A DNA stretch of 64,000 nucleotides from Eledone cirrhosa (taxonomy: Eukaryota). Positions 1-64,000 of the stretch are shown here, in pieces. Below the pieces are notes generated by a model. The model saw nothing but the letters and a program-made list of their open reading frames with translations, made no database searches and was not told the origin of the DNA. A program made the translations under genes and the position numbers. How positions within the stretch are numbered: position 1 is the first letter of the stretch; each line of letters begins with the position of its first letter. The DNA lies in assembly GCA_964016885.1 (NCBI GenBank), contig CAXHJY010001618.1, forward strand, positions 32,042 to 96,041. The letters run 5' to 3'.

Positions 1-3000
1 CAAAAACACCTGGGTCTTGCCGTACAAGTTGTGCACTCGGACCCGGAGGGTCGTTTGTTGGTGCTAGACGTTGGCAGTAGTGAAAGTGCGGCCTTGAGAC
101 TGGTTGCCGTCTACTCCCCTTTCGGAGCTGAACGGCCCGACTTCTTCCAGCGATTGGAGACTTTTCTGGGAACGTCGCGTTCCTTGCTTCTAGCGGGGGA
201 TTGGAATGACATCCTAGATGCACGTTGGGACTATGCAGGAGCATGTCCTAATAGAGGGGGGTGTAACATCCTCAAGGGGTTACTCGACCGTTTTAACTTG
301 GTCGATAGATATCGACTAGATTTACCAACTGTGCCTACCTGGACTTGGAGAAACCACAGTGGTCAATCTAGATCGTACTTAGATAGAGTCTTAGTTAGAA
401 GTAAGGATAGGGACATATTAAACTGTCCAGAAATGCGCACGGTTGGCTACACGGATCACAAATTAGTGACCTGCGTAGTCAATCTCGAGAAAACACATAA
501 ACAGGGTCCCGGTTACTGGAAACTTAATTTGTCTTTACCGGCAAAAGAGACTTACAGAAACCGGATTAGCAGATTAGTTAAGGAGAGGTTGACGAGTGCA
601 ATCGTCAACAACCGATGGTGGGCATCTCTCAAAAGAGAGATTAGAACAGAATCAATAAGTTATAGCAAGATGTTAGCTGCCGATAGGAATAGAAACGAGA
701 AAGAATTAACAGGTAAATTAGCAGAGGCAATCAAGAGCGAAGATGTGGCCAGAGTGCTGGCATCGAGGACGGCCTTGAACCAGTTTTTCGATGCAAAGCA
801 CGAAGGCTGCGTCATTCGAAGTAAAATACGTGCTCTAGGTAATGAGGGGGCCAAAGCCGTTGGCTGGGCCCGCGTGACAGAAGCTAAGAGTGGAAATCGA
901 TCCACCATCCGGTCGTTGCAAGACGAAGATGGACGGGTGATCCGGGAGCCTAAGCAGATGTGCGAGGTCTTTCAAAGGCACTTTGCCCGATTGTTCGGGG
1001 AGGCGAGGGTCCGGGCGGGGGCGTGGATTTCGGTCCATACCTCGACGGCCTGCCGCGTCTCTCGAGCGAAGAGGCAGAGTCCTGAGAGGGACCAATCTCG
1101 GCTGATGAGATCGGAGATGCGCTGAGCCAATGCAGCAGACGCAAATCTCCAGGTCTCGATGGTATACCTTACGAACTTTATTTAGCAATGCCGGTCTTCT
1201 TCTCCGAACTCCTCGAAGCGGTCTACTGCAATTGGCAGCAGAACGGGAGAATTCCTTGTTCTGTAGCCAAGGGCGTATTCACGCTGGTGAGGAAGGACGA
1301 GAACAGGGGAGATAGTATAAATAATTTTCGGCCCATAACCCTGCTAAACACAGAGTTAAAGATTTTGGCCAAGGTGTTAGCAAAGAGGTTGGCGCTTGTC
1401 GTGGGTGGCCTGGTGGGAGATGCGCAGACATGTGCTATCCCATCCAGGTCCATTCACGATAACCTCCACCTCATGCGATACATCATAGAGAGGGTTGGCA
1501 ACAAACCCGGCTTCGGTGGGGCCCTGATCAACTTGGATCAGTCTAAGGCGTTCGATAGGGTCGACCATGGTTACCTGGATGCGGTGCTAGCGGCGGCTGG
1601 GTTCGGTCCTGTTTTCAGAGGCTGGATCACTGCCTTACATAGCATCCACATCTGTTCTAGGATCAAGGTGAACGGCTACCTTTCGAAGCCGTTCGAAATC
1701 ACACGATCCATTCGACAGGGGTGCCCTCTCTCTTCCCTTCTGTACGTATTGACTCTCGAGCCTTTACTGAGGAAGTTGGAGTTGTTGCAGGGTATCCCCC
1801 TGGAACCAGGATTGAGAAAAGCGGTGTCGGCCTACGCCGATGACGTAACAGTAATGGTATCGACCGACTCGGAGATCGAGGCGATCGGTACCTTACTGGA
1901 GGAGTACGAAAGGTTGTCAGGAGCGAAACTGAACCAGGAAAAATCCATCGGGCTGCAACTCGGAACGTGGAGAGGCAGACCGATGCCTCCTGACGGTGTC
2001 GTCGGACACTGGACGGAGGGCCCGGTAAAGTTGCTTGGGGTCTGGTTTGGACCGGACCTCCAGGTGGAAAAGAACTGGAACGAGGTTACGAACAAGGTGT
2101 TTGCACTAACCCAGAAATGGGCCAAGTGTAAGCTGTCCCTAAAAGGCCGGGCGGAGGTGGCGAACATTTACATAGCGTCCGTCACTTACTACCGCCTGAC
2201 TGTCGTGCCTTGTCCTAAGGAAACACTCACCACCATGGAACGCATGCTCTTCCAATTTCTTTGGAAGAAGCGCCCTCCTATGGTGAGAAGATCCATCTGC
2301 TGCCAATAACCTTCGAAAGGAGGGCTGGGGATGCCGTGGTTGATGATGCGTAGGCACGCATTAAGGCTACGGCACCTACAGGTATTCCTCACTGGTCAAC
2401 AGGTGTGGGCTCCGTTCGTGAAACGAGCCTTTCCGAGACTCGTCTCGCTCACCGAGCTACAGTCCTGGGTCAAGCAAAGATCCAGAAAACTGGGAGACTG
2501 GCACACTGAGTGTGCTCAGGCGCTCAGGGCTCTCTGGCCAGGCCATCGGTGGAGAATCCACCTCATCATTCTATAGAGGGTTGGTGGCTAGCAGGGGCGA
2601 TGACACCCTTGGAGAGTCGCTGGACATGGAAGAAGACGAACTGGCCAGCCTGTTCGGTAGGACTTTCGGCCCAGGACCAATGGACAACTTCCAGAAGTCA
2701 CTGGCCTGGCAGTCCTACCGGGGGGCTCTACCCGTTCGAGAGAGGCTCTACAGACACGGGCGCCCGGGCAGGGATCCCTCAAAAAAGATTTGCCCTAGAT
2801 GCGTGCGTCACGAAGAAACCGTTGCGCACGCATTGGTGCAATGTCCGGGCGTGGCTGATCTGTGGGGCTACGCCGAACGACTGCTGTCGCGTGTGGCGCC
2901 GATTAAATTGACCGCCGAGTCCGTGATGACAATCAAACCGCCTCCCCTCTTCACAAAGGAAGCAAAGGCGGTTTTTCTGTGCGTAATAGCCATGTTGAAA

Positions 3001-3420
3001 GAGGTTGTTTGGTGGACACGATTGAAAGGTCTGAGGTCAGGCAACTTCCTCTCTGGCCATAGTCTGGTCTACTTCTTCCGATATCACTTCGGAAGAAGGA
3101 TAAGAATGGAGAGAGAGGTGCTTGCCACAGGCAGTTTTATGAAAGGTGGGTGATAGTGGCGAGAATGGCTCGTGTAAATGGGCCTTCTCTGTATACCATC
3201 CTGTAGGTAAAGAAGTAAAGGAGAAGGGAGCACCTTCTCCATGTGCTCCCCGGGCAAAGGATTGCACACTTTTTCGGGGGTGTGTGCAACCCCCATCACG
3301 TCCCCTCCCTTTTGAGGTTATTTTCGATTATTTTCATGTTACACCCTTTTTACTCGATTATATGTAAACTCCCCCTTTGTATTTGTCCCTTCTTTTTATG
3401 CCTTTATGGTAAATAAAGAA
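1..3420 (+). mobile_element. Tx1/L1-clade non-LTR retrotransposon ORF2 (APE endonuclease, RT, C-terminal zinc finger) plus 3' UTR; disrupted, and its 5' part runs off the window
   Basis: APE motifs LAGDWN, SYLDRV and TDHKLV; RT motifs FRPITLLN, LDQSKAFDRV, RQGCPLS and AYADDV; C-terminal CPRC..EETVAHALVQC. Frameshifts near 1010-1130, 2520 and 3140, and a stop at 2307. Ends in AATAAAGAA followed by (TA)n/(GA)n. Confidence 0.93.
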
Positions 3421-5121: not shown

Positions 5122-5302
5122 CAAGAAAGTTGGAAATCTGTTGGAAATCTGCTTCGAAGAATCGAGGCGTATCTGAGGACCTTGCGATTTCAGGGTCAGA
5201 TTCGATTATTACATCGACCGTGCTTCGAGCTGGCCGCAGAGAAACGATTGTAATATGTCTAATAAATTGTATTCGTCGCACCACTGATTCTCCGTGTCTT
5301 AT

Positions 5303-5305
<3 letters not shown>
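5122..5305 (+). mobile_element. Short PLE terminal fragment between (TA)n tracts, containing a hammerhead
   Basis: Unique 180-bp insert flanked by (TA)n on both sides; it carries the HHR at 5165-5260. Confidence 0.6.
5165..5260 (+). ncRNA. Type I hammerhead ribozyme with branched stem II insertion
   Basis: Stem I AGGCGUAU/AUAUGUCU; core CUGAGGA...GAAA; stem III AC-GAUU-GU; GUA triplet. Hairpins CCUUG/CAGGG and UCGAU/AUCGA lie between the core boxes. Confidence 0.6.
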
Positions 5306-5365
<60 letters not shown>

Positions 5366-5372
5366 ATAATAA

Positions 5373-7290
5373 TATACCCGTATAGAAAGCCGAATGATAC
5401 GCTTAATTACATAAGTAAGCATTCCAACCATCCTGCCAGCATAACCAAGAACCTGGTAAGAAACGTTTCGTTGAGGCTTTCCCGTCTTTCCACCAACGAG
5501 CGTATTTTCCACGACCATTCCATTTATTACAATGAAGCTCTTGCTCGGAGTGGATTTGTCGATAAGGTAACATATACAGAGTACGAAAATAGACCTAGAA
5601 GAAATAGATCCCGTCGCATTTGTTGGTATAACCCACCATATAATATGGAGGTGGCCACACCATTAGCTAAGATCTTTCTTTCCCTTATTACGAAGCATTT
5701 CCCCCCTACACATAAATATAGTAAAATTTTTAATAGAAATACTATTAAAATTTCTTACTCTACGACTCCTAACCTTGCACATAACATCACAGCTTCACAT
5801 TTAGCCAAACTACCTAGCCGTAGGAACACGTGCAACCCTGTAGTTAGTAGTAACTGTAATTGTAGGAATCGGGTTGATTGCCCCCTATCCGGGAAATGCC
5901 TCTCTAGTAACATTGTCTACAAATGTAAGGTTGTAACACGCACGTCCCGTAGGCCTACATAGGGTTAACTGCCAATAGATTCAAGCAGCGTCTTTACATG
6001 CATACCCATTCTTTTCGTTACCCTCTAAGAAGGAATATGACGTCACTTTCAGCTTATATCTGGAGTCTAAAAGACAACCACACCCAATATAAGTTACACT
6101 GGGAGATCCTAGCTAGGGCTAGATGGTATAACGGAAATAAAAGACCATGTGACCTCTGCGCCGCTGAGGCCCTGGAAATACTCTACGCCACAGACCACAT
6201 CTTAAACAAAATATCTGAGGCAATTTCAGCTTGTAAACATAAATTGCACAAAACTTTCCTGTATTACAGCCCCACGTTATACCCTAACGGATAGTACGAT
6301 CTATACTCGGACATTTTACGTCTCGATGTGGGAGCTAAGTATATGTTTTGTTTATACCTTTACTTATTTGCATAGGTAAGTATATATTATCCGTATGTTT
6401 TGTGAAGGTACGTATAACTTCTAGTACGTATATTTGATTGTTATGGCGTATATTTTTTTTATATATTCTGGTACATATGGTTCGGCTATGTGTATACGGG
6501 AGTTTTGCGTCTGTGTGAGTATGTAGGTTCGTACGTATGTAGGGCGTGTGTATATGTGTACTTCATGTTTTGGTTGACTTACGTCTCCGAACATTCGTGT
6601 ATTTACATGTAGGTATGTGTGTGCGCTTGTTATATACGTATTTATTTATTTATATACGTTTATATAATTATTTATTTATTTGTATACACGCTTACACACA
6701 CACACATATTTACATGTGCGTGGTTTTGTTTACCTATGGTAAGTTTTTGCGTATGCTTGTGTATGTACGTATTTGTTTGCGTGTATGTATTTATTTATTT
6801 CTATTACTTCTGTATTGTATTTATTTACTTTGTTCTTAATTCTGTAGCAGAGATTCATTCGGTCTCCTAGTTAGAATTTAGTCTACGACTATGCTATACC
6901 ATTTGCGTGGTTTTGTCTTTGCGTGCTATTGTTCTCCACGGTCCACATATGACGTATTATCTTCGTTTTTTTCGTTCATTGCCGGAGAACGTCTCTATGA
7001 ACCACCTAAGAGAACATTAGTCTACGACCACTTTTATACCATAAACGTGGTTCTGTCTTTGCGCGTAATAGTTTTTCACCGCTCCTATTAATGACGTGTT
7101 ATTCGTTTTTTTCCCGTTCTTTGCCAGCGAACGTTTTCACGAACCAAAGTATCGTCTTCCTGTCTTCCTCCGGTTGCAACGTTTTTTGAAATATCCACTT
7201 CTGCGTTTACAGATTGACTTTGTTAGTTTCAGAAGATCCCGTTAAGGGTGAAAGCAGCGATTCTTTGCTTAAACTTAATCTTTTATTTTA
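5373..7290 (+). mobile_element. 5'-truncated Naiad-type Penelope-like element (RT thumb, linker, GIY-YIG, 3' UTR/pLTR) inserted in (TA)n
   Basis: YPYRKPND..HSNHP, WYNPPY, CNCRNRVDCPLSGKC, VYKC..YIG..FKQR..H and CDLC..E..LNK..E..CKH motifs; frameshift near 5955; (TA)n on both sides; near-identical to 62690-64000. Confidence 0.9.
7225..7275 (+). ncRNA. Type I hammerhead ribozyme, U4->A core variant
   Basis: AGUUU CAGAAGA UCCC-GUUAA-GGGU GAA AGCAG-CGAUUCU-UUGCU U AAACU; stems I, II and III can all form. Confidence 0.65.
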
Positions 7291-21269: not shown

Positions 21270-22080
21270 GCATCTTGGTTAAGAGAGTGGGACTGGCTTT
21301 GTGCAGTGCCTTTGCTCACTATAAAAGCTTCATGGCACAGGCATTTCTTTATATCTGGAGATCTCTCTGCACTTGTCATCACAGGGTACAATGGGCCCAG
21401 CACTATGTGTCAATAATTGTTACAAGTGTAGTGTTTGTACCAGAGTTTTCAAGTCGCTGGCTGGACTAAAATGTCACACTCGTTCAGCGCATCAGTAGGG
21501 GTTCTCCTACATGGATATAAAGTAGTGGCCGTACTCGAAAACGAGTTGGCAGCCACCATGTATGTATGTATGTATGTATGTATGTATGTATGTATGTATG
21601 TATGTATGTATGTATGTATGTATGTATGTATGTATTATATGGATGTCTCTGTGCTGGAGAGATGACCCATTAGCCTTTGTCAAGGCAGAATTCTAGAAGA
21701 AGGAAGGAAAACTCTGATATAACACCTGCAACCCTAATGGTATCCAATGATGTTGACTTGTTCTTATTTTTGGTAAATATCATCTTGGTTAAGAGAGTGG
21801 GACTGGCTTTGTGCAGTGCCTTTGCTCACTATAAAAGCTTCACGGCACAGGCATTGCTTTATATCTGGAGATCTCTCTGCACTTGTCGTCACATGGTACC
21901 ATGGGCCCAGCACAATGTGTCAATAATTGTCACAAGTGTAGTGTTTGTACCAGAGTTTTCAAGTCGCTGGCTGGACTAAAAAGTCACACTCGTTCAGCGC
22001 ATCGGTAGGGGTTCTCCTACATGGATATAAAGTAGTGGCCGTACTCGAAAACGAGTTGGCAGCCACCATGTATGTATGTA
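21270..22080 (+). mobile_element. Two tandem 5'-truncated copies of an RTE-derived non-autonomous element with (ATGT)n tails
   Basis: 21270-21560 and 21655-22070 are near-identical to each other and to 47190-47600. They end in CSVCTRVFKSLAGLKSHTRSAH* and the 3' hairpin GTGGCCGTACTCGAAAACGAGTTGGCAGCCAC. Confidence 0.8.
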
Positions 22081-27362: not shown

Positions 27363-27475
27363 CGCGTGTGTATATAATATATATAATATATAATATATAT
27401 ACGCGTGTGTATATACCTAAAAACACAGAGACACATATATAATATGTATGTGTGTGTGTATATGTATGTATGTAT

Positions 27476-27543
<68 letters not shown>

Positions 27544-27608
27544 ATATTTATATATATATGTATGCATATATATATACACACACACATATATATATACATA
27601 TATATATA

Positions 27609-28270
27609 TAAATATAAGTATGTATACGTACATAGATATATGTATACAAACGTACAGTAGTATGTATATACATACATACAAGCACACATATATATATATG
27701 TACGTATGGGTTTACCGAACATTTATTATAATGTTCGGTTTGTTTGTAAAACAAACAGCACGAATTATTAGCCGTACAGTATTCGGCAACCATCGTTGCC
27801 ATTTTGTTCAACACTGACAAAGGAACGATGAACTAGTTTCTAGCTTATTAGCTGTCATCAGCACCGTATACCTTCCTGTCAGTTGATTGAACGTTTGAAA
27901 GTATATACTTTCCTCATGCATATTAACGGCTGGGCAGCCTAATTTGCATATCGAGTGAGTTAGTTGGCCGGACGTACCGAAAACGATAAATGGAAAAAAT
28001 GAAATTTCATTTCTCACTCTTAGTACGGCTGATACTTAAATATAAGTATGTATGCGTACATACATATATGTATACAGACGTACAGTAGTATGTATATACA
28101 TATATACATGCACACATATATATATATATGTAAGTATGGGTTTAACGAACATTTATTATATTGCTCGGTTTGTTTGTAAACAAACAGCCCGAAATATTAG
28201 CACTACAGTGTTTGGCAACCATCGTTGCCTTTTGTTCAACAATATACAGTATACTACTGTACGTCTGTAT
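27609..28270 (-). mobile_element. Non-coding retrozyme-like / mini-PLE element: 205-bp direct repeats, central HHR, small 5' inversion
   Basis: 27609-27813 resembles 28037-28241 (period 428); HHR at 27825-27867; 28251-28270 is the reverse complement of about 28072-28091; flanked by (TA)n. Confidence 0.7.
27825..27867 (-). ncRNA. Minimal type I hammerhead ribozyme
   Basis: ACGGUG CUGAUGA C-AGCU-AAUA-AGCU-A GAA AC-UA-GU U CAUCGU; 6-bp stem I; palindromic ACUAGU stem III. Confidence 0.8.
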
Positions 28271-28289
28271 ATATATATATATATATATA

Positions 28290-29030
28290 TAGAAGTGGTT
28301 ACACAACAGTTAGTTCACCATACCGAGAACAATTGTTTGACCTTAGCAGATCCTCAGCTCGAAATGGACATGGTTATACGGAACAGGAAGGACAACGGTA
28401 CGAACGCACATGCGTAGAAACGAACACTTCACGCAGTCAATACTAAATTGGGTGCGAGAGGTGTAAGGGAGATAACTGCGAAAGTTCGAAAGTGTCTAGT
28501 TGATAAGAAAATTAGCATGTTGTTGTAATTCAATCCCGAGCTTTGTAGTTATGTAAGAGGTATTTCCAGACGTGTGGACATCGTGTGTAGAATTCCTTTC
28601 TCGTGTTTAGGCAATCACTATTGCGTAATCTCTTTAGAATATTTATTCGTTCATCAATACATAGTCCACACGACGTATTGCTCCTTGCGTATGGCTTGGA
28701 CTTAGTGATGGCTTTCCATTGAATGGAGTAGTCTATACTTGAGTCCTTGAGAGACCATACGTGGCTCGCGAGTTTCATCGATGAGCGTCTGTCCGGGTAC
28801 CTAAAGTTCGACTGGTGTTTCAGTTGGTGATGTGGGCCTTCATGTTCTTAGCGCAGAAGTATTCTAGTTTTACTTTGTGTCGGTTAAAGATGGAGCGATA
28901 TTTATGACCTATGGGAAAGTATCTATCCAAAGTATCTATCTAAGAGGGCCAGAAACTTTTTGCCTACATTGGTTTTAACGTTGAGTGAGAAGGAAGGATA
29001 GAACCAGATAGTTTGTCTATTGTGACCCTA
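28290..29030 (-). mobile_element. Naiad-type PLE fragment (linker and GIY-YIG C-terminus, internally deleted)
   Basis: [37 protein letters not shown] and LASHVWSLKD..IQWK..CGLCIDE..LNTRKE..RCPH. Confidence 0.85.
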
Positions 29031-29048
29031 CCATTAATTGGTGGATTT

Positions 29049-29099
<51 letters not shown>

Positions 29100-29286
29100 G
29101 ATAAATCCACCAATTAATGGTATGGTCGAAGCCGCATGAAGAACTCAATGTAATCCGTATGTAGAAGATGTCGTGAAGCAAAGTTTAAAATACAGAATTT
29201 CAACGATATAATTCATTGGAAGCAGAGTCAAAATAATACAAATAGTGAAAACAATTAAATTAAACAAAATACGGGTAATTTATAGT

Positions 29287-39964: not shown

Positions 39965-40845
<881 letters not shown>

Positions 40846-40859
40846 ATATATATATATGA

Positions 40860-41222
40860 AAAATAACAACCTGAACCCCCCTTGTTTGAAGAACTTTGTA
40901 ACGCAAACTGGCGCGAAATGTATTATAATTATTAACCAACCAATCAAATTACTTCTCTAAAACCTGGCATTTCGAGCCACTTTTTTCCATATAAAACAAG
41001 TAACATTCAGAGACCAACCAGGTGTGAGAAAAACCACAGACCCTCCATCTCAACTTTACTTTGAAAAGCAGAAGAACTGCGAAACCGGTAAAGGAACCAA
41101 ATAAATATATATTTTAAAAAAAATAAGACTCCAGTTGCATTTTCGATTTCATCTTTTTTTCTTTATACTTTCACTCGTATAGGACACCTCGGTTATTTCT
41201 CATTTTGTAAAAAAACCCTCAC

Positions 41223-46991: not shown

Positions 46992-47600
46992 TGTCAGGTC
47001 ACCAGTTGGTGCTACTGGTAACATGTATCCCAGTACAAGCTGTCTCATGGTCGGGTCGTTGGCGACTAAACTGGCAACCCCACCAAGGTTTCTTGGTGAG
47101 GAGGTTGACTTTGGACATCCCGCCGGACTAAAAACAAAATCTGTCAAAGGGAAAAAGGAGCTCTTAAGAGTCAATGGCCATCCAAAATCACCGGGAGAGA
47201 TGATCCCTTAGCCTTTGTCAAGGCAGAATTCTAGGAGAAGGAAAACTCTGATATAACACCTCCAACCCTGATGGTATCCAATGATGTTGACTTGTTCTTC
47301 TTTTTGGTAAATATCATCTTGGTTAAGAGAGTGGGACTGGCTTTGTGCAGTGCCTTTGCTCACTATAAAAGCTCCACGGCACAGGCATTGCTTTATATCT
47401 GGAGATCTCTCTGCACTTGTCGTCACATGGTACCATGGGCCCAGCACTATGTGTCAATAATTGTCACAAGTGTAGTGTTTGTCCCAGAGTTTTCAAGTCG
47501 CTGGCTGGACTAAAAAGTCACACTTGTTCAGCGCATCGGTAGGGGTTCTCCTACATGGATATAAAGTAGTGGTCGTACTCGAAAACGAGTTGGCAGCCAC
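46992..47600 (+). mobile_element. Longest copy of the bipartite RTE-derived non-autonomous element
   Basis: Contains the RTE 5'-region-like motif CTAGGAGAAGGAAAACTCTGA and the same RTE-like 3' end as 21270-22070. Confidence 0.75.
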
Positions 47601-47984: not shown

Positions 47985-48053
47985 ATTTTATTATGCGCAT
48001 TTCAAAAACAAACATCATCAAACAATAATATTTGTGTTTTCATCAGATAAAAC
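47985..48053 (-). ncRNA. Hammerhead in the inverted pLTR
   Basis: Reverse complement of 52805-52873. Confidence 0.8.
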
Positions 48054-48938: not shown

Positions 48939-49007
48939 GTTTTATCTGATGAAAACACAAATATTATTGTTTGATGATGTTTGTTTTTGAAATGCGCATA
49001 ATAAAAT
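48939..49007 (+). ncRNA. Type I hammerhead in the 5' pLTR
   Basis: GUUUUAU CUGAUGA [ACAAAUAUUAU/AUGAUGUUUGU stem] GAA AUGCGCAU A AUAAAAU. Confidence 0.82.
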
Positions 49008-49212
49008 ATATTGAACTCCTTTAACCATCTTTTGATCTTATATTATGCATACTCCAGTCCCACAAACTGTAGAGTGCTTCTTATCCGATATTTGCATTGC
49101 TTTATTGTACTACAATAAAACTCACCTCCTACATTAACTTGCTCCTTAACGGTTGAGCGCTTACTCTCATATTGGATACCTTTTGATGGTCCTTCACCTC
49201 TTCTTCTACAAC

Positions 49213-51608
49213 ATGGATTATTACAACATAACCAATTCAACTAAAGACATTCCTATACCTGGTAAATCTGAATTCACCAAACTTCTTATTGAAAAAACTG
49301 ACTCCTTCGTAAGAAGACTTAGATGGACAGCCTATTTCTATGACCAGCGCCTAAAAGGGAACTTTCATACCAAAGAACACAACTTCCTCGATCATCTTTT
49401 TAATTCCAGACGAAATCCTCCTTCCAACAAAAATCTAGCACAATTCGAGGAAGAATTAACTAAAATTATAAAAAATCTTAAATTCAAGAGATACCCTTAC
49501 AAAGGATAAGAGCACCTTGTAAATCTCAAGAACACAATCTCTAACCTAAATTCCTCAAAAAATGTTTTAGTCCACTCTGACAAAACCAATAACCTATATG
49601 GTATTTCCAAGGATAATTATAACAACCTTATCCTAAAGGAACTTAGGAAAAAGTATCGTAAAACCAACCATGAAAATTTAGAATGCATAAACCTTGAAGC
49701 CTATGAGATTATGTCAAAACTTGGCATTGAAAAAAAGACCGAACCATTCCTCCCAAGAACTCCGAGGATAAATCTCAAGGATCACAAAAACAATTTTCGC
49801 ACTGAACTACCTGTTAGATTAATCGCCCCCTCTAAATCTGATCTGGGGGTTGTTAGTAAAGCCATCTTGGATAGGATTATCCCACAGGTTAGTTCTAATT
49901 GCTCTTCTTTAAACCTAAATTTATGGTTTGGTACTTCTGAAGTGATTGGCTGGTTCAACAAATTAGATAATAAAAACAAACTAAAATTTATTCAATTCGA
50001 TATTGCCAGCTACTATTCCTCCATTTCGCCTTCACTTCTCAATAATGCTCTATCTTTCGCACTTAAATATTCTGACATCACCACAGATGAACTTCACATC
50101 ATCCTCACCGCACGTAAAACCATCCTAGAGTTCAACAACGAATATTGGACCAGAGCCGATACCTCTAACAACTTCGACATCACAATGGGAGCATCCGATT
50201 CATCCCAATTGACTGATTTAATTGGTATCTTCATTTTGAACTCTTTGAGTCGGAAAATTCCTCAACTTTGCGGTGGAATTTATCGTGACGATGGACTCTT
50301 TACTATCCTAAATTGCAATATAGTTAAACTTAATATTATTAAGAACAATATACGTAATCTCTTTAACCAACATAACCTAAAAATTGAATTTGATAATAGT
50401 ACCAAACTAGCTAATTTCTTGGATGTATCTCTTAATCTTGACACTGGCCTATATTACCCTTACCATAAAAACAATGAGAATCTTAATTATGTTAACTTTA
50501 AATCTAACCATCCTACCAATATCAAGAATGCTATAGTTAATAATATTGGAAATAGAATATCTAACATATCTTCTAATAAAAACATCTTTGATGCTAACGC
50601 CAATTACTATAATAACGCACTTTCTAAAGCCGGCTATCCAGATAAAATCAAATATAATAAAGAAACAAATTCTAGGAAAACTTACAGTAGAATATTTAAT
50701 CATAACCATTCCAATAATTTTAATAAAAGACCTAGATACAAAAACATAATCTGGTATAATGCTCCTTTCTCCATCTCTATTAATAACAATATTCCTAAAT
50801 TATTTTTTAGTGCCTTAAATAAATGCTTCCCTCCCTCACATATCTATAGTAAAATATTTAACAAACACACCATCAAATTTTCGTATTCTACATCCTCCAA
50901 TATTTCCAACATCATCTCTAAACACAACAACAAAATATTAAATACTAAATCTCTTCCTTCCAATATTGAATTTCATAATAACAGTAATAGTACTCCTGAC
51001 GTCATTGTAAACCCTAGGCTAACTTCTGTAAACCCAAATGCAACGTCAAACACAACTTCGCTAAATGTTCATAATCCAACTCTAAATCAAGAAACTATTA
51101 TTCCTATTATTCCTATCGCAAACAACTTCTCCAATCCAATTCCTTCTATAGATAACACTAGATCACTCATTAATAATCTCTCCAATTGCAACTGCCGCAT
51201 TAAAAATAAATGTCCTCTCAACAACCATTGCCTCGATAAAAACTTAATTTATGAATGTAAAATTATAACTAGCACCAATTCCTTCACCTATTTTGGCTCC
51301 ACTTCCACCTCTTTTAAAGCTCGTCTCTATAATCATCATTCAAATACAAACTTAAAAGAACTAACACTGCTCTCTCAGAACTCATATGGTCCTTAAAAGA
51401 CAAAAACATTAAATATAACATCTTTTGGAAAAAGATTTCTTCTGCATCCTCATACTTGAACAGCTCTCTATCTAAAATCTGTAATCTCTGCCTAAATGAA
51501 AGATTTACCATTATCTCTAACCTAGAATCCATAATAAATAGACGCTCAGATTTGTTTTCTATCTGCCTGCATAAATTCCATAGAACTTTTCACAAAGTAT
51601 ACAGTTAA
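49213..51608 (+). pseudogene. PLE reverse transcriptase / GIY-YIG endonuclease ORF with one in-frame stop (49507) and one frameshift (about 51340)
   Basis: STKDIPIP, RRLRW, HSDKTNNLY, LKDHK..PVRLIAP, QFDI..YY, MGASD, GIYRDDGL, NFLDV, SNHP, CNCRIKNKCPLNNHC, YFGST..FKAR..H and CNLCLNE..NRRS..CLH. Confidence 0.92.
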
Positions 51609-52804
51609 TATTCAATTCTTTATCAATTTAGAATCTTTTCTCAAAGGCACATATACATACACCTCTTTAAAATATACCCATCTACCTTACTTTAAAGGGC
51701 ATTATACACTCTATAATACTCGTTTACTCATTACGCTCATTCTATCTTCTCGTAAAACAATAACATTTGTTTTTGACATTTTGAATATTCATCCGCAATC
51801 ATTATTATTTTTTCTCTCTATCATAAATCTTTTTAATCTCAATTTCATCCTTAATTTATTATTATATATTTTTTTAATATATACTCATATATTCTTTAAA
51901 ATATACCCATCTACCTTACTTTAAAGGGCATTATACACTCTATAATACTCGTTTACTCATTACCCTCATTCTATCTCCTCGTAAAACAATAACATTTGTT
52001 TTTGACATTTTGAGTATTCATCCGCAATCATTATTATTTTTTCTCTCTATCATAAATCTTTTTAATCTCAATTTCATCCTTAATTTATTATTATTTTTTT
52101 CTCCCCATCAACGAACTCATTATTAATACATATGAATTCAATATACAAACTTTAACTTCACATTATTTTTCTCAAATCCTTCTACACATAAACTTTTTCT
52201 CTTTGCTAATTTTAAAATTCCTACATTTCTTCTTTTGACGTTAGAATATTCACCCACAATTATTATTTTTTTCTCTCTATCTTCATACATAATTTCCCTT
52301 CGTTAATTTTCAAATTCCTTTAATTTATACATTATCTTCCAACGGTTCCCAACCTCTCTATATTAAAACATTATATCTTTTTCTCAGTTATAAAAACTAT
52401 CTCTTTCTCTCTATCACCCATCTCTCCCTTTTCACCTTCACTCTCATCTCCTCCCCTTTTTTTCATCCTTTCCAACCCCCCCTCCCTAAATATAATATAT
52501 TTTTTCCTCGCACATATCCTCCCTTCGTTAATTTTCAAAATTTTTAATTTATACAGTATCTTCCAACGGTTTTCAACCCCTCTATATAAAATATATCTCC
52601 TCTCAGTTATAAAAACTATCTCTTTCTCTCTATCACCCATCTCTCCCTCTCATCTCCTTCCCTTTTCATCCTTTTCTCTCCCCCCCCTCTCTAAATAAAA
52701 TATTTTTCCCAATATCACACATCAATCTAAAACCACTTTTCATATGTTGATTTAAAACTGCACTATCAACAAGTGTTTTTTTAGCCTTCATATCATGTTC
52801 TCCT

Positions 52805-52873
52805 GTTTTATCTGATGAAAACACAAATATTATTGTTTGATGATGTTTGTTTTTGAAATGCGCATAATAAAAT
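52805..52873 (+). ncRNA. Type I hammerhead in the 3' pLTR
   Basis: Same sequence as 48939-49007. Confidence 0.82.
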
Positions 52874-60435: not shown

Positions 60436-60999
60436 GTAAAGGTAACTACAGCAGGTACAGTGAATTTTTTTAAATTTAATTTAAAACTTTATCTTATTTG
60501 CTAAACCTTGATTATATATGTTCTGGCTCGTTAATTTATATTAACCTGCCATAGAACCACATTGGCATATGGTTGGATAATACATGTGGCCCCATATGTA
60601 TTTTGCATCTTGGGATATATACTTTATTATTATTAATCTCCCCTAATGTCGAGATAACATTTTGGTCGGTTTGACTGCTGCTTTTTCTAGTGGAGTGGAT
60701 TGACCTTTCCGCCTCTGCCTTCTATCTTTACACACGGCACTGGACAGAATTGCTTCTATATCATTCACTCTCATCTCGGGAACAATTTTGAATAGCGCCA
60801 GTTCGTAATTTGAACTCGGGAATTTTATATTCTTCGAGTGAAAAAAATCTTCTGACGAGCGTCTTTCTTTTCAATGGATGTCCGTAAGGACTATCCATTT
60901 ATTTTTGAGACTTGAAACCGTACGGTAAAGGTAACTAGAGCAGGTACAGTGAATTTTTTTTGATTTATTTGAAAACTTTTCCTTCTTTGCTAAACCTTG

Positions 61000-61005
<6 letters not shown>
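60436..61005 (+). mobile_element. Non-coding retrozyme-like / mini-PLE with terminal direct repeats of about 80 bp beginning at the HHR cleavage site
   Basis: 60436-60518 resembles 60925-61008; HHR at 60847-60932; no credible ORF; (TA)n on both sides. Confidence 0.75.
60847..60932 (+). ncRNA. Type I hammerhead ribozyme with long stem II
   Basis: AUCUU CUGACGA [GUCUU/GAGAC, AAUGGAU/AUCCAUU, GUCC-GUAA-GGAC] GAA ACCG-UA-CGGU A AAGGU. Confidence 0.85.
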
Positions 61006-61078
<73 letters not shown>

Positions 61079-61418: not shown

Positions 61419-61608
<190 letters not shown>

Positions 61609-61733
61609 GTATATATAACGAAGGAAATGTGGTAAGGAACCAGGTGGACCATAACGCACCAAAGTACTCAATACTTAGGGTAGTAGAGTGGGTAATAGGA
61701 ACAAGTAAGACCCCTTGGGGTCTTACTTGTTCC

Positions 61734-61776
<43 letters not shown>

Positions 61777-61778
<2 letters not shown>

Positions 61779-64000
61779 CTGAAGAATAGAATTCGTTCTA
61801 TTAAGGATTCTAACGCCGTGCACGTCCATTCCGACAAAACTGGCAACCTATATCAAGTGGAGCGCAGTACTTTCCATCAACTACTACATAATGCTGTAAC
61901 TAAGGATTACCGTAAAACTAATCAGTGCGTCATCAATGAAATCAACGATGGTGGGTTTAAAATCACATCTGATCTCAACATCCTGGACCGGACCGAACCT
62001 CTGGACCCTATCACACCCCACTTTACCCTGAAGGATCACAAATCCTATTTTCCGAACAACCCCTCTATTCGGCTTATTAACCCTACAAAATCCGATTTAG
62101 GTAGACTTAGTAAAACGATTCTTGATAGAATTATACCTGAAATTAGAAGTTTGGCCCCTCTCGCACTGTGGAACAATTCTATCGCGGTGATTGATTGGTT
62201 CAACGGCATATGTAACAAGGAACATTGCCGTTTTATCCAATTCGACATCAACAAATACTACTCCTCCATCACTTTACCACTTCTCCTTAGAGCTATCAAT
62301 TTCGCTAAAACACTGACAGTGGTTAAGGATTTTGAAGTTGATGTCATCCTTAATGCCCGAAAGTCGGTGATTAATTTCGACGACTCTATTTGGATTAAAA
62401 AATCCAATAGTACCCCATTCGACGTGAGTATGGGCGCCAGTGACTCTGCGGAGGTTACTGATCTTATTGGCCTTTTCCTTCTTTTCTCTATCAAGGACGA
62501 ATTCCCCAACGCGGGCGGTGGTTTGTACCGTGACGATGGTCTTTTGACCATGACTAAGTGCGGACCTCGTGCTTGCGACAGGTTCAGAAAAGAACTCACA
62601 GCCTTCTTTAAAGGCTTCAACCTCTCTATACAGGTTGAGGCCAATCTCTCGGTCGTTAATTACCTCGACGTTACCCTCAATTTATTGAAAGCCGAATGAT
62701 ACGCTTAATTACATAAGTAAGCATTCCAACCATCCTGCCAGCATAACCAAGAACCTGGTAAGAAACGTTTCGTTGAGGCTTTCCCGTCTTTCCACCAACG
62801 AGCGCATTTTCAACGACCATTCCACTTATTACAATGAAGCTCTTGCTCGAAATTTGTCGATAAGGTAGCATATACAGTGTACGAAAATAGACCTAGAAGA
62901 AATAGATCCCGTCGCATTTGTTGGTTTAACCCACCATATAATATGGAGGTGGCCACACCATTAGCTAAGATCTTTCTTTCCCTTATTACGAAGCATTTTC
63001 CCCCTACACATAAATATAGTAAAATTTTTAATAGAAATACTATTAAAATTTCTTACTCTACGACTCCTAACCTTGCACATAACATTACAGCTTCAAATTT
63101 AGCTAAACTACCTAGCCGTAGGAACACGTGCAACCCTGTAGGTAGTACTAACTGTAATTGTAGGAATCGGGCTGATTGCCCCCTATCCGGGAAATGCCTC
63201 TCTAGTAACATTGTCTACAAATGTAAGGTTGTAACACCCACGTCCCGTAGGGCCTACATAGGGTTAACCGCCAATAGTTTCAAGCAGCGTCTTTACATGC
63301 ATACCCATTCTTTTCGTTACCCTCTAAGAAGGAATATGACGTCACTTTCAGCTTATATCTGGAGTCTAAAAGACAACCACACCCAATATAAGTTACACTG
63401 GGAGGTCCTAGCTAGGGCTAGATCGTTATAACGGAAATAAAAGACCATGTGACCTCTGCGCCTCTGAGGCCCTGGAAATACTCTACGCTACAGACCACAT
63501 CTTATACAAAAAATCTGAGGCAATTTCGGCTTGTAAACATAAATTGCACAAAACTTTCTTGTATTACAGCCCCACGTTATACCCTAACGGATAGCACGAT
63601 GTATACGTGGATATTTTACGTCTTGATGTGGGAGCTAAGTATATGTTTTGTTTATTCCTTTACGTATTTGCATAGGTAAGTATATATTACCCGTATGTTT
63701 TGTGAAGGTATGTATACCTTATCGTACGTATATTTGACTGTTATAGCGTATAATTTTTTACATATTCTGGTATTTAGGGTTTGGCTATGTGTATACGGGA
63801 GTTTTGCGTCCGCGTGAGTGTGCAGGTTCGTACGCATGGTGGGTGTGTGTATATGTGTACTTCTTGTTTTAGTTGACTTACGTCTCCGAACATTCGTGTA
63901 TTTATATGTATGTATGCGTGTGCTCTTGTTATATACGTATTTATTTACTTATATACGTTTATATAATTATTTATTTATTTGTACACAAGCGTACACACAC
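61777..64000 (+). mobile_element. 5'-truncated Naiad-type PLE (RT and GIY-YIG, frameshifted); same family as 5373-7290; runs off the window
   Basis: HSDKTGNLY, LKDHK..IRLINP, QFDINKYY, MGASD, GLYRDDGL, NYLDVT; deletion near 62690; CNCRNRADCPLSGKC and YIGLT..FKQR; preceded by (TA)n. Confidence 0.92.

What the first reader, a model, noticed from the sequence alone, without database searches (positions are those of the whole stretch)
27609..28270. Second, unrelated mini-element with the same repeat-HHR-repeat architecture
Seen: on the minus strand, 205-bp direct repeats (period 428) surround a minimal HHR (27825-27867). The 5' repeat begins about 17 nt after the equivalent of the cleavage site, and a 20-bp inverted copy of internal sequence caps the 5' end, as is typical for PLE insertions. 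There is no coding capacity and no similarity to the 60436 element. Inference: this is an independent non-autonomous family, so the architecture recurs.
Basis: partly seen in the sequence, partly recalled or inferred. Interest (0 to 1): 0.75.

Follow-up and report, generated by a model that had tools for sequence, protein, structure and literature searches.

The report
Hammerhead retrozyme with Penelope-type insertion ends
This is one of thousands of copies of a 428-base non-coding repeat that carries a hammerhead (self-cutting RNA) motif, a known kind of animal parasitic element; its copies end at two fixed points in TA microsatellites, so a Penelope-type retrotransposon enzyme likely pastes them in, probably from an RNA circle.

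Summary
The repeats, the ribozyme motif and the inverted cap are real, but the architecture is not repeat-HHR-repeat. It is 1.48 turns of a 428-nt non-coding tandem unit, with at least 7,544 unit segments in this 3.0-Gb genome. The hammerhead is a canonical type I with covarying helices, not the minimal Penelope type, so the element is an animal non-LTR retrozyme. Copies end at two fixed sites 51 nt apart, mostly in (TA)n. In head-to-head insertions one arm ends at each site (49 of 52). This is the 'tail' that is reported as unique to Penelope-like elements (PLEs). 5' ends do not gather at the cleavage site, so the 17-nt offset is chance. Tandem turns share rare variants as often as inverted arms do (19% vs 15%; other loci 3%), which favours an RNA-circle template. 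No copy runs into its own ORF. The PLE-type fragment beside the element is a separate insertion in the same TA tract, and no autonomous partner was found. A 466-nt sister family keeps the ribozyme fold, both end sites and an octamer block. Cleavage and expression are untested. The scan noted similar elements earlier, here and in other genomes. New member of a known kind.

The parts
27609..28241 (-). Main arm: 633 bp = 1.48 turns of the 428-nt unit, ending at the 'short' 3' site
28037..28241 (-). 5' 'repeat' (unit positions 1-205 of the upstream turn; 5' truncated)
27609..27813 (-). 3' 'repeat' (unit positions 1-205), joined to (TA)n at ...TATATTTA|TATA
27986..28036 (-). 51-nt 'tail' between the family's two 3' end sites; contains a hairpin
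27939..27950 (-). 12-nt block with octamer ATGCAAAT (27949-27942), identical in the 466-nt sister family; candidate promoter element (inferred)
27814..27882 (-). Canonical type I hammerhead: distal helix, loop 1, helix I (27867-27862 with 27830-27825), helix II with C.A at its base and UAAUAA loop, 2-bp palindromic helix III, GUU cleavage triplet (27831|27830)
28251..28270 (+). 20-bp inverted copy of 28072-28091 (short second arm); 9-nt filler at 28242-28250
28271..28290 (.). (TA)n tract at the 5' junction, shared with the neighbouring element
27440..27608 (.). (TA)n/(TG)n microsatellite at the 3' junction (target)
28291..29020 (-). Neighbour, not part of the element: decayed 3' fragment of a PLE-type retroelement (endonuclease C-terminus, 3' UTR, own small hammerhead at 28357 with a core G changed to C), ending at that family's own terminus
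   Evidence: PLE assignment from recalled motifs, no library hit

Best explanation
It is a copy of a high-copy animal non-LTR retrozyme: a 428-nt non-coding tandem unit with a canonical type I hammerhead, whose copies carry the end structure of Penelope-like elements and are therefore likely inserted by a borrowed PLE enzyme, probably from a circular monomer RNA. Shown: the unit, the copy number, the covarying ribozyme fold, two fixed 3' end sites 51 nt apart, (TA)n targets, variable 5' ends, head-to-head arms with one end at each site, read-through of the cleavage site, and sharing of rare variants between tandem turns. Inferred steps: (1) Copies with two or more ribozymes are transcribed, possibly from an internal octamer-containing promoter. 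(2) The hammerheads cut, likely as dimers, and a host ligase closes the monomer. (3) A PLE RT/endonuclease nicks both strands of a (TA)n tract and starts reverse transcription from each end at one of two internal RNA sites, with 2-5 nt of TA-like microhomology setting the exact base. (4) It copies round the template until it falls off. This copy has only one ribozyme, so it could not release a monomer by itself.
For: Copy number: 3,958 and 7,544 exact 20/24-mer matches, reversed controls 0. 3' ends: 118 short, 130 tail, 62 other among 310 arms. (TA)3 lies within 14 nt of 103/118, 103/130 and 13/62; within 3 nt, 85/120, 71/131 and 4/62, against 6% background. Sequencing contigs of one sample, possibly the assembly's source, show TA loose ends at 27986 and 28040. 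Head-to-head pairs: 49 short/tail, 3 concordant, 34 with another end, of 86 (p about 1e-11 on 52). PMC11167929 shows the tail is two RT start sites, is unique to PLEs, and that both strands are extended. Ribozyme: 192 of 229 copies have an intact core; subfamily changes fall at N7, 10.1/11.1, H17 and helix I only; 6 of 12 pairs change on both sides across 8 rows from two families. Unit fold z -7.8. Template: in 20 loci with both, tandem turns differ at 210/3335 sites and inverted arms at 284/4508. Rare variants are shared 58/311 (tandem), 36/246 (inverted) and 97/3195 (other loci of the same subfamily). No position-specific difference between turns. 208 of 310 arms cross at least one cleavage site.
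Against: No autonomous PLE with similar ends was found, so the partner is unassigned; the sample was small (13 clusters in about 0.93 Mb, against 65,345 candidates). In PMC11167929 HHR cleavage is not needed and uncut RNA is the main substrate in vitro, and RT starts without homology to the cut DNA, whereas both end sites here resemble TA tracts. The family lacks G10.1-C11.1 (C.A or U.U) and this subfamily has a GUU triplet, so cutting may be weak. In the 2026 preprint only 1 of 9 Xenopus dimers cleaved. The monomer minimum-energy fold is not the active hammerhead fold. Very young tandem source loci or gene conversion would also make turns alike. The tail is 51 nt, longer than the reported 30-40 bp. 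The covariation rests on only two families, and the fold z-score is partly due to palindromic TA repeats.
Confidence: 0.72

Rival explanations
1. Same family and same PLE enzyme, but the template is an uncut linear multimer read from tandem source loci; the ribozyme matters little for insertion.
For: PMC11167929: HHR mutants insert normally and unprocessed RNA dominates in vitro. Helix II is weak here. 5' ends are not at the cleavage site.
Against: Tandem turns share rare variants as often as inverted arms do, whereas a linear source predicts less sharing. No turn-specific variants. The ribozyme fold is kept by compensatory change. The sister family has long arrays on both arms of one inversion.
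Confidence: 0.2
2. The sequence is the detached terminal repeat (pLTR and 3' UTR) of an autonomous PLE, and the copies are truncated autonomous elements.
For: PLE ends throughout; a PLE-type fragment lies directly upstream in the window; the preprint finds 21 of 57 Xenopus retrozyme families matching PLE termini.
Against: Of 127 free 5' ends, only the window's own and L024 have a same-strand PLE hit within 1.2 kb, both from the neighbour family. The neighbour ends at its own terminus before the TA tract. PLE hits downstream start at scattered ORF positions, mostly after TA tracts. Units join head-to-tail without an ORF.
Confidence: 0.05
3. A satellite or local tandem duplication spread by DNA-level processes, with a chance hammerhead-like motif.
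For: Long near-identical arrays exist in the sister family (464/466 between neighbouring units); Rfam score below threshold.
Against: Dispersed copies, two fixed 3' ends, variable 5' ends, tail asymmetry and ribozyme covariation.
Confidence: 0.02

Closest known systems
Animal non-LTR retrozymes (Cervera & de la Pena 2020, PMC7229834: passages, parts 3-4 of 6 read; Li, Clavereau & Pollet 2026, 10.64898/2026.07.22.740005: parts 1-3 of 5 read, the main text)
   Same: Canonical type I HHR in a short, low-GC (35.5%), non-coding, highly folded tandem unit. The U.U base of helix II in the major subfamilies recalls axolotl HHR_Amex2. Co-exists with PLE-type elements.
   Different: The unit is 428 nt, a little above the 170-400 nt studied. 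Those papers infer the PLE link from co-occurrence and pLTR similarity; here it rests on insertion ends (tail asymmetry, TA targets), with no pLTR match found. RNA and cleavage untested.
Penelope-like elements and their tail (Frangieh et al. 2024, PMC11167929: parts 1-2 of 4 read; Craig et al. 2021, PMC8557442: passages)
   Same: Partial tandems, inverted 5'-truncated arms, tail on one end, two internal start sites, AT-rich or microsatellite targets.
   Different: No RT or GIY-YIG ORF; 51-nt tail; canonical rather than minimal HHR; end sites look TA-homologous to the target.
Non-autonomous Chlamys PLEs such as MRC1 and Chlamys-N4 (PMC8557442, PMC9977147: passages)
   Same: Non-coding, pLTR-forming, multicopy head-to-tail insertions in microsatellites.
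   Different: These generally share 3' ends with an autonomous family, and N-terminal-EN PLEs are described as lacking canonical HHRs.
Newt satellite 2 (snRNA-type promoter; Coats et al. 1994, seen only as a citation in PMC2220036; its octamer element is recalled)
   Same: Hammerhead tandem repeat with an internal promoter; here an octamer block about 80 nt upstream of the core.
   Different: Promoter function here is inferred from conservation only.
Minimal PLE hammerheads (Cervera & de la Pena 2014, PMC4209133: parts 1-2 of 4 read)
   Same: Type I, palindromic short helix III, predicted dimer.
   Different: Those have a 7-8 bp helix II, a 4-5 bp helix I and a bulge after A9; this one has the canonical 6/4 helices with conserved loops 1 and 2.

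Membership tests
Animal non-LTR retrozyme | Canonical type I HHR (helix I 6 bp, II 4 bp, III 1-2 bp with palindromic loop) | tested here: met
   base of helix II is a mismatch
Animal non-LTR retrozyme | Short tandem unit of 150-450 bp, low GC | tested here: met
   428 nt, 35.5% GC; arms up to 2,449 bp
Animal non-LTR retrozyme | No coding capacity, no true LTR | tested here: met
   no tRNA gene; PBS/PPT not searched
Animal non-LTR retrozyme | Two or more consecutive HHR units ('active' by the preprint's rule) | tested here: inconclusive
   This copy has one HHR (not met); 26 of 310 family arms cross two or more cleavage sites
Animal non-LTR retrozyme | Self-cleavage and circular RNA in vivo | not testable with these tools
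   needs assay and RNA data
Penelope-like element (autonomous) | RT plus GIY-YIG ORF | tested here: not met
PLE-mobilised non-autonomous element | Partial tandems, 5' truncation, inverted arm | tested here: met
   38 of 77 loci of the pattern-picked sample have head-to-head arms
PLE-mobilised non-autonomous element | Tail on one end (two RT start sites) | tested here: met
   49 discordant vs 3 concordant pairs; 51 nt
PLE-mobilised non-autonomous element | Microsatellite or AT-rich target | tested here: met
PLE-mobilised non-autonomous element | Terminal similarity to an autonomous PLE | tested here: inconclusive
   none among 13 clusters in about 0.93 Mb; most PLE families not sampled
Minimal PLE hammerhead | Long helix II, short helix I, bulge after A9, G10.1-C11.1 | tested here: not met

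The most novel reading that the evidence does not exclude
This is part of a self-transcribing retrozyme clan (about 22,000 units in one genome). It carries its own octamer/snRNA-type promoter and a conserved two-site RNA handle for a PLE reverse transcriptase, is copied by rolling-circle reverse transcription from both ends of a break, and has persisted across about 30% sequence divergence with no sequence-matched autonomous partner. That would make it a minimal natural substrate defining what PLE enzymes recognise.
Probability: 0.3. Interest if true: 0.62.

Novelty: new member of a known kind. Interest (0 to 1): 0.4.

Why it matters
The link between animal retrozymes and PLEs has rested on co-occurrence and terminal similarity. 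Here the PLE-specific tail is read directly from insertion ends, and variant sharing between tandem turns gives genomic support for a circular template. A 428-nt RNA with two mapped start sites, kept in a divergent sister family, makes it testable which PLE enzyme mobilises retrozymes and whether circles are the template. The class itself is known.

Tried and rejected
(1) 5' ends set by ribozyme cleavage: rejected. 0 of 100 pattern-picked copies start at the site. 2 of 57 arms end within 2 nt of it, 0.7% per nt against 0.3-0.4% per nt over most other stretches, and lower just beside it. A (TA)3 flank at the site gave 15 matches (13 loci) against 100 matches at a control 10 nt downstream, though that control has more microhomology. 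A weak excess at the second site (3 of 25) is not convincing. The drop from 3,958 to 1,318 matches across the site comes from subfamily differences. (2) A sequence shared upstream of 5 copies is the 3' end of an RTE-like LINE (assignment recalled) whose TA tail is the target, not a longer form. (3) Partner search: a protein search returned one family only, and 3' UTR mining found no match. (4) Whole-window Rfam output was swamped by microsatellite hits. (5) Pfam, NCBIfam and PDB gave no significant family for the PLE-type ORFs. (6) No RNA holder listed. (7) Target-site duplications were not resolved, because the flanks are microsatellites. (8) The nearest-neighbour figure was dropped, because overlapping fetches bias it. 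Arms cut by a locus edge and duplicate arms were dropped before counts. Alignments A1 and A2 had badly chosen rows and were not used. (9) Lunse 2017 and Coats 1994 are not held; preprint supplements were not seen and could list related families.

Full report
Observation. On the minus strand, 28241-28037 and 27813-27609 align with 188 identities in 203 columns at an offset of 428. Between them lies a hammerhead core with predicted cleavage at 27831|27830. The 20-bp inverted cap (28251-28270), the lack of a real ORF and the lack of similarity to the 60436 element all hold. Unit positions below count from 28241 = 1.

It is a family. A DNA search of the 3.0-Gb genome gave 2,781 candidates, the best at about 96% identity. 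Exact patterns gave 3,958 and 7,544 matches with 0 for reversed controls. Only 40 of 143 sampled units matched the second pattern exactly, so the true number is higher. I mapped 310 distinct arms from 189 locus ids. These were top hits, the first 100 places of two patterns on contig 1, and junction-pattern hits, so the set is not wholly unbiased. Units join head-to-tail at period about 428, up to 2,449 bp. The window copy is 1.48 turns, and the 'repeats' are the overlap. It differs from its subfamily majority at 12 of 410 sites, about the subfamily mean of 2.9%.

The ribozyme. Helix I has 6 bp, followed by an internal loop and a distal helix. Helix II has 4 positions and a UAAUAA loop. Helix III has 2 bp and a palindromic UA loop. 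This matches the canonical metazoan type I described in PMC4209133, not the minimal PLE variant. Rfam aligns it to HH9 below threshold. The core is intact in 192 of 229 copies. Subfamily-level changes fall at N7, 10.1/11.1 (C.A or U.U), H17 (U or A) and helix I, never at invariant positions (with 5 changes in 35 sites this alone is not significant). With the sister family, 6 of 12 pairs change on both sides and slid controls fail (two families, 8 rows). Against activity: there is no G10.1-C11.1 pair, and the monomer's predicted fold pairs the core otherwise, though helix I forms.

Insertion ends. 3' ends fall at unit 195-210 (118 arms) or 244-256 (130), with 62 elsewhere. The two main classes mostly run into (TA)n. 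Contigs of one sequencing sample show the same TA loose ends at 28040 and 27986 (not independent of the assembly). 5' ends are scattered, and 38 of 77 pattern-picked loci have head-to-head arms. Of 86 such pairs, 49 have one arm at each site, 3 have both at one site and 34 involve another end. Craig et al. describe a tail at one end of PLE insertions. Frangieh et al. show it is the stretch between two internal RT start sites, unique to PLEs, with both DNA strands extended. Both sites here overlap 2-5 nt of TA-like sequence, so target pairing may set the exact base. That is inference, and it differs from the in vitro result.

The 17-nt offset is chance. 5' ends do not collect at the cleavage site, and 208 of 310 arms read through at least one site. 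The template is therefore either a re-closed circle or uncut RNA. In 20 loci with both features, tandem turns and inverted arms are equally diverged (6.3% each). Rare variants are shared between tandem turns in 58 of 311 cases, between inverted arms in 36 of 246, and with other loci of the same subfamily in 97 of 3,195. Subfamily-diagnostic sites agree in 660 of 744 cases against 395 expected. A linear read-through of an aged tandem source predicts less sharing between turns than between arms, so a monomer template is favoured. Young sources or gene conversion remain possible.

No ORF of its own. Of 127 free 5' ends, same-strand PLE-type hits within 1.2 kb occur only at the window and at L024, both from the neighbour family. 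That neighbour (28291-29020) ends at the same terminus in L024 and is 33% identical over 78 aa to a young 713-aa frame. It is a separate insertion in a shared TA tract. Calling these ORFs PLE rests on recalled motifs, because the libraries gave no significant hit. No 3' UTR among 13 clusters resembles the unit, but only a small part of 65,345 candidates was seen.

Sister family and possible promoter. A pattern for other ribozymes with this helix III found a 466-nt family (9,819 matches). It is colinear with this unit, and of its 10 listed arms, 9 end at the two homologous sites. Outside the ribozyme, the best-kept block is 12 nt containing the octamer ATGCAAAT (22,038 matches). Newt satellite 2 has an internal snRNA-type promoter (citation in PMC2220036; the octamer detail is recalled). 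A promoter role here is a guess from conservation.

Comparison and verdict. The element meets the sequence features of animal non-LTR retrozymes and the insertion features of PLEs, but is not an autonomous PLE. Nine paper searches listed no report of the tail in retrozymes; that covers only the held library, and preprint supplements were not seen. Earlier notes of this scan, read after my own tail count, describe the same pattern here and in other genomes; they are not independent support. New member of a known kind, with a clear mechanistic footprint; cleavage, circles and the helper remain untested. Interest 0.4.

Noticed in passing
G000:C1:5738326-5752444, C1:30831844-30838224 (L254-L283): A 466-469-nt sister retrozyme family: 9,819 pattern matches (control 7), G10.1-C11.1 ribozyme, arrays of about 31 units at 464/466 identity, head-to-head ends. 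It is colinear with this unit (299 identities in 479 columns) and ends at homologous sites.
   Followed up: partly
window 27939-27950 (-): An octamer-containing block shared by both families; 22,038 genome matches of the joint pattern (control 0); exact octamer in 166 of 193 units.
   Followed up: partly
window 60436-61008 (+): A separate 489-nt hammerhead family (2,959 candidates). In 14 of 15 loci the main arm ends at one site in (TA)n; its ribozyme has a long helix II.
   Followed up: partly
window 48946-52812 (+): A 628-aa PLE-type RT/endonuclease frame (49510-51396) between two identical hammerhead-like motifs 3,866 nt apart, with an inverted third at 48046: probably a near-complete PLE.
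   Followed up: no
window 61551-63431 (+), 5288-5962 (+); L209-L238: A young PLE-type family with 713-aa open frames at 97-99% identity. Its two 3' termini often sit tail-to-tail with this retrozyme across one TA tract, so it is a candidate helper by target only.
   Followed up: partly
window 40203-40922 (-), 40053 (-): A GIY-YIG fragment of another PLE type (Pfam E 0.054) followed by a small hammerhead with G10.1-C11.1.
   Followed up: no
window 21738-22067, 47272-47600; L026, L117, L133, L170, L180: The 3' end of a high-copy RTE-like LINE with a TA/TATG tail that serves as a landing site for the retrozyme.
   Followed up: partly
window 29029-29122: A long inverted repeat around a TA/TG tract at the 5' side of the neighbouring PLE fragment; the Rfam miRNA hits there are microsatellite artefacts.
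   Followed up: no
window 1086-3153 (+): Non-LTR retrotransposon RT frames (407 and 243 aa), type not determined.
   Followed up: no
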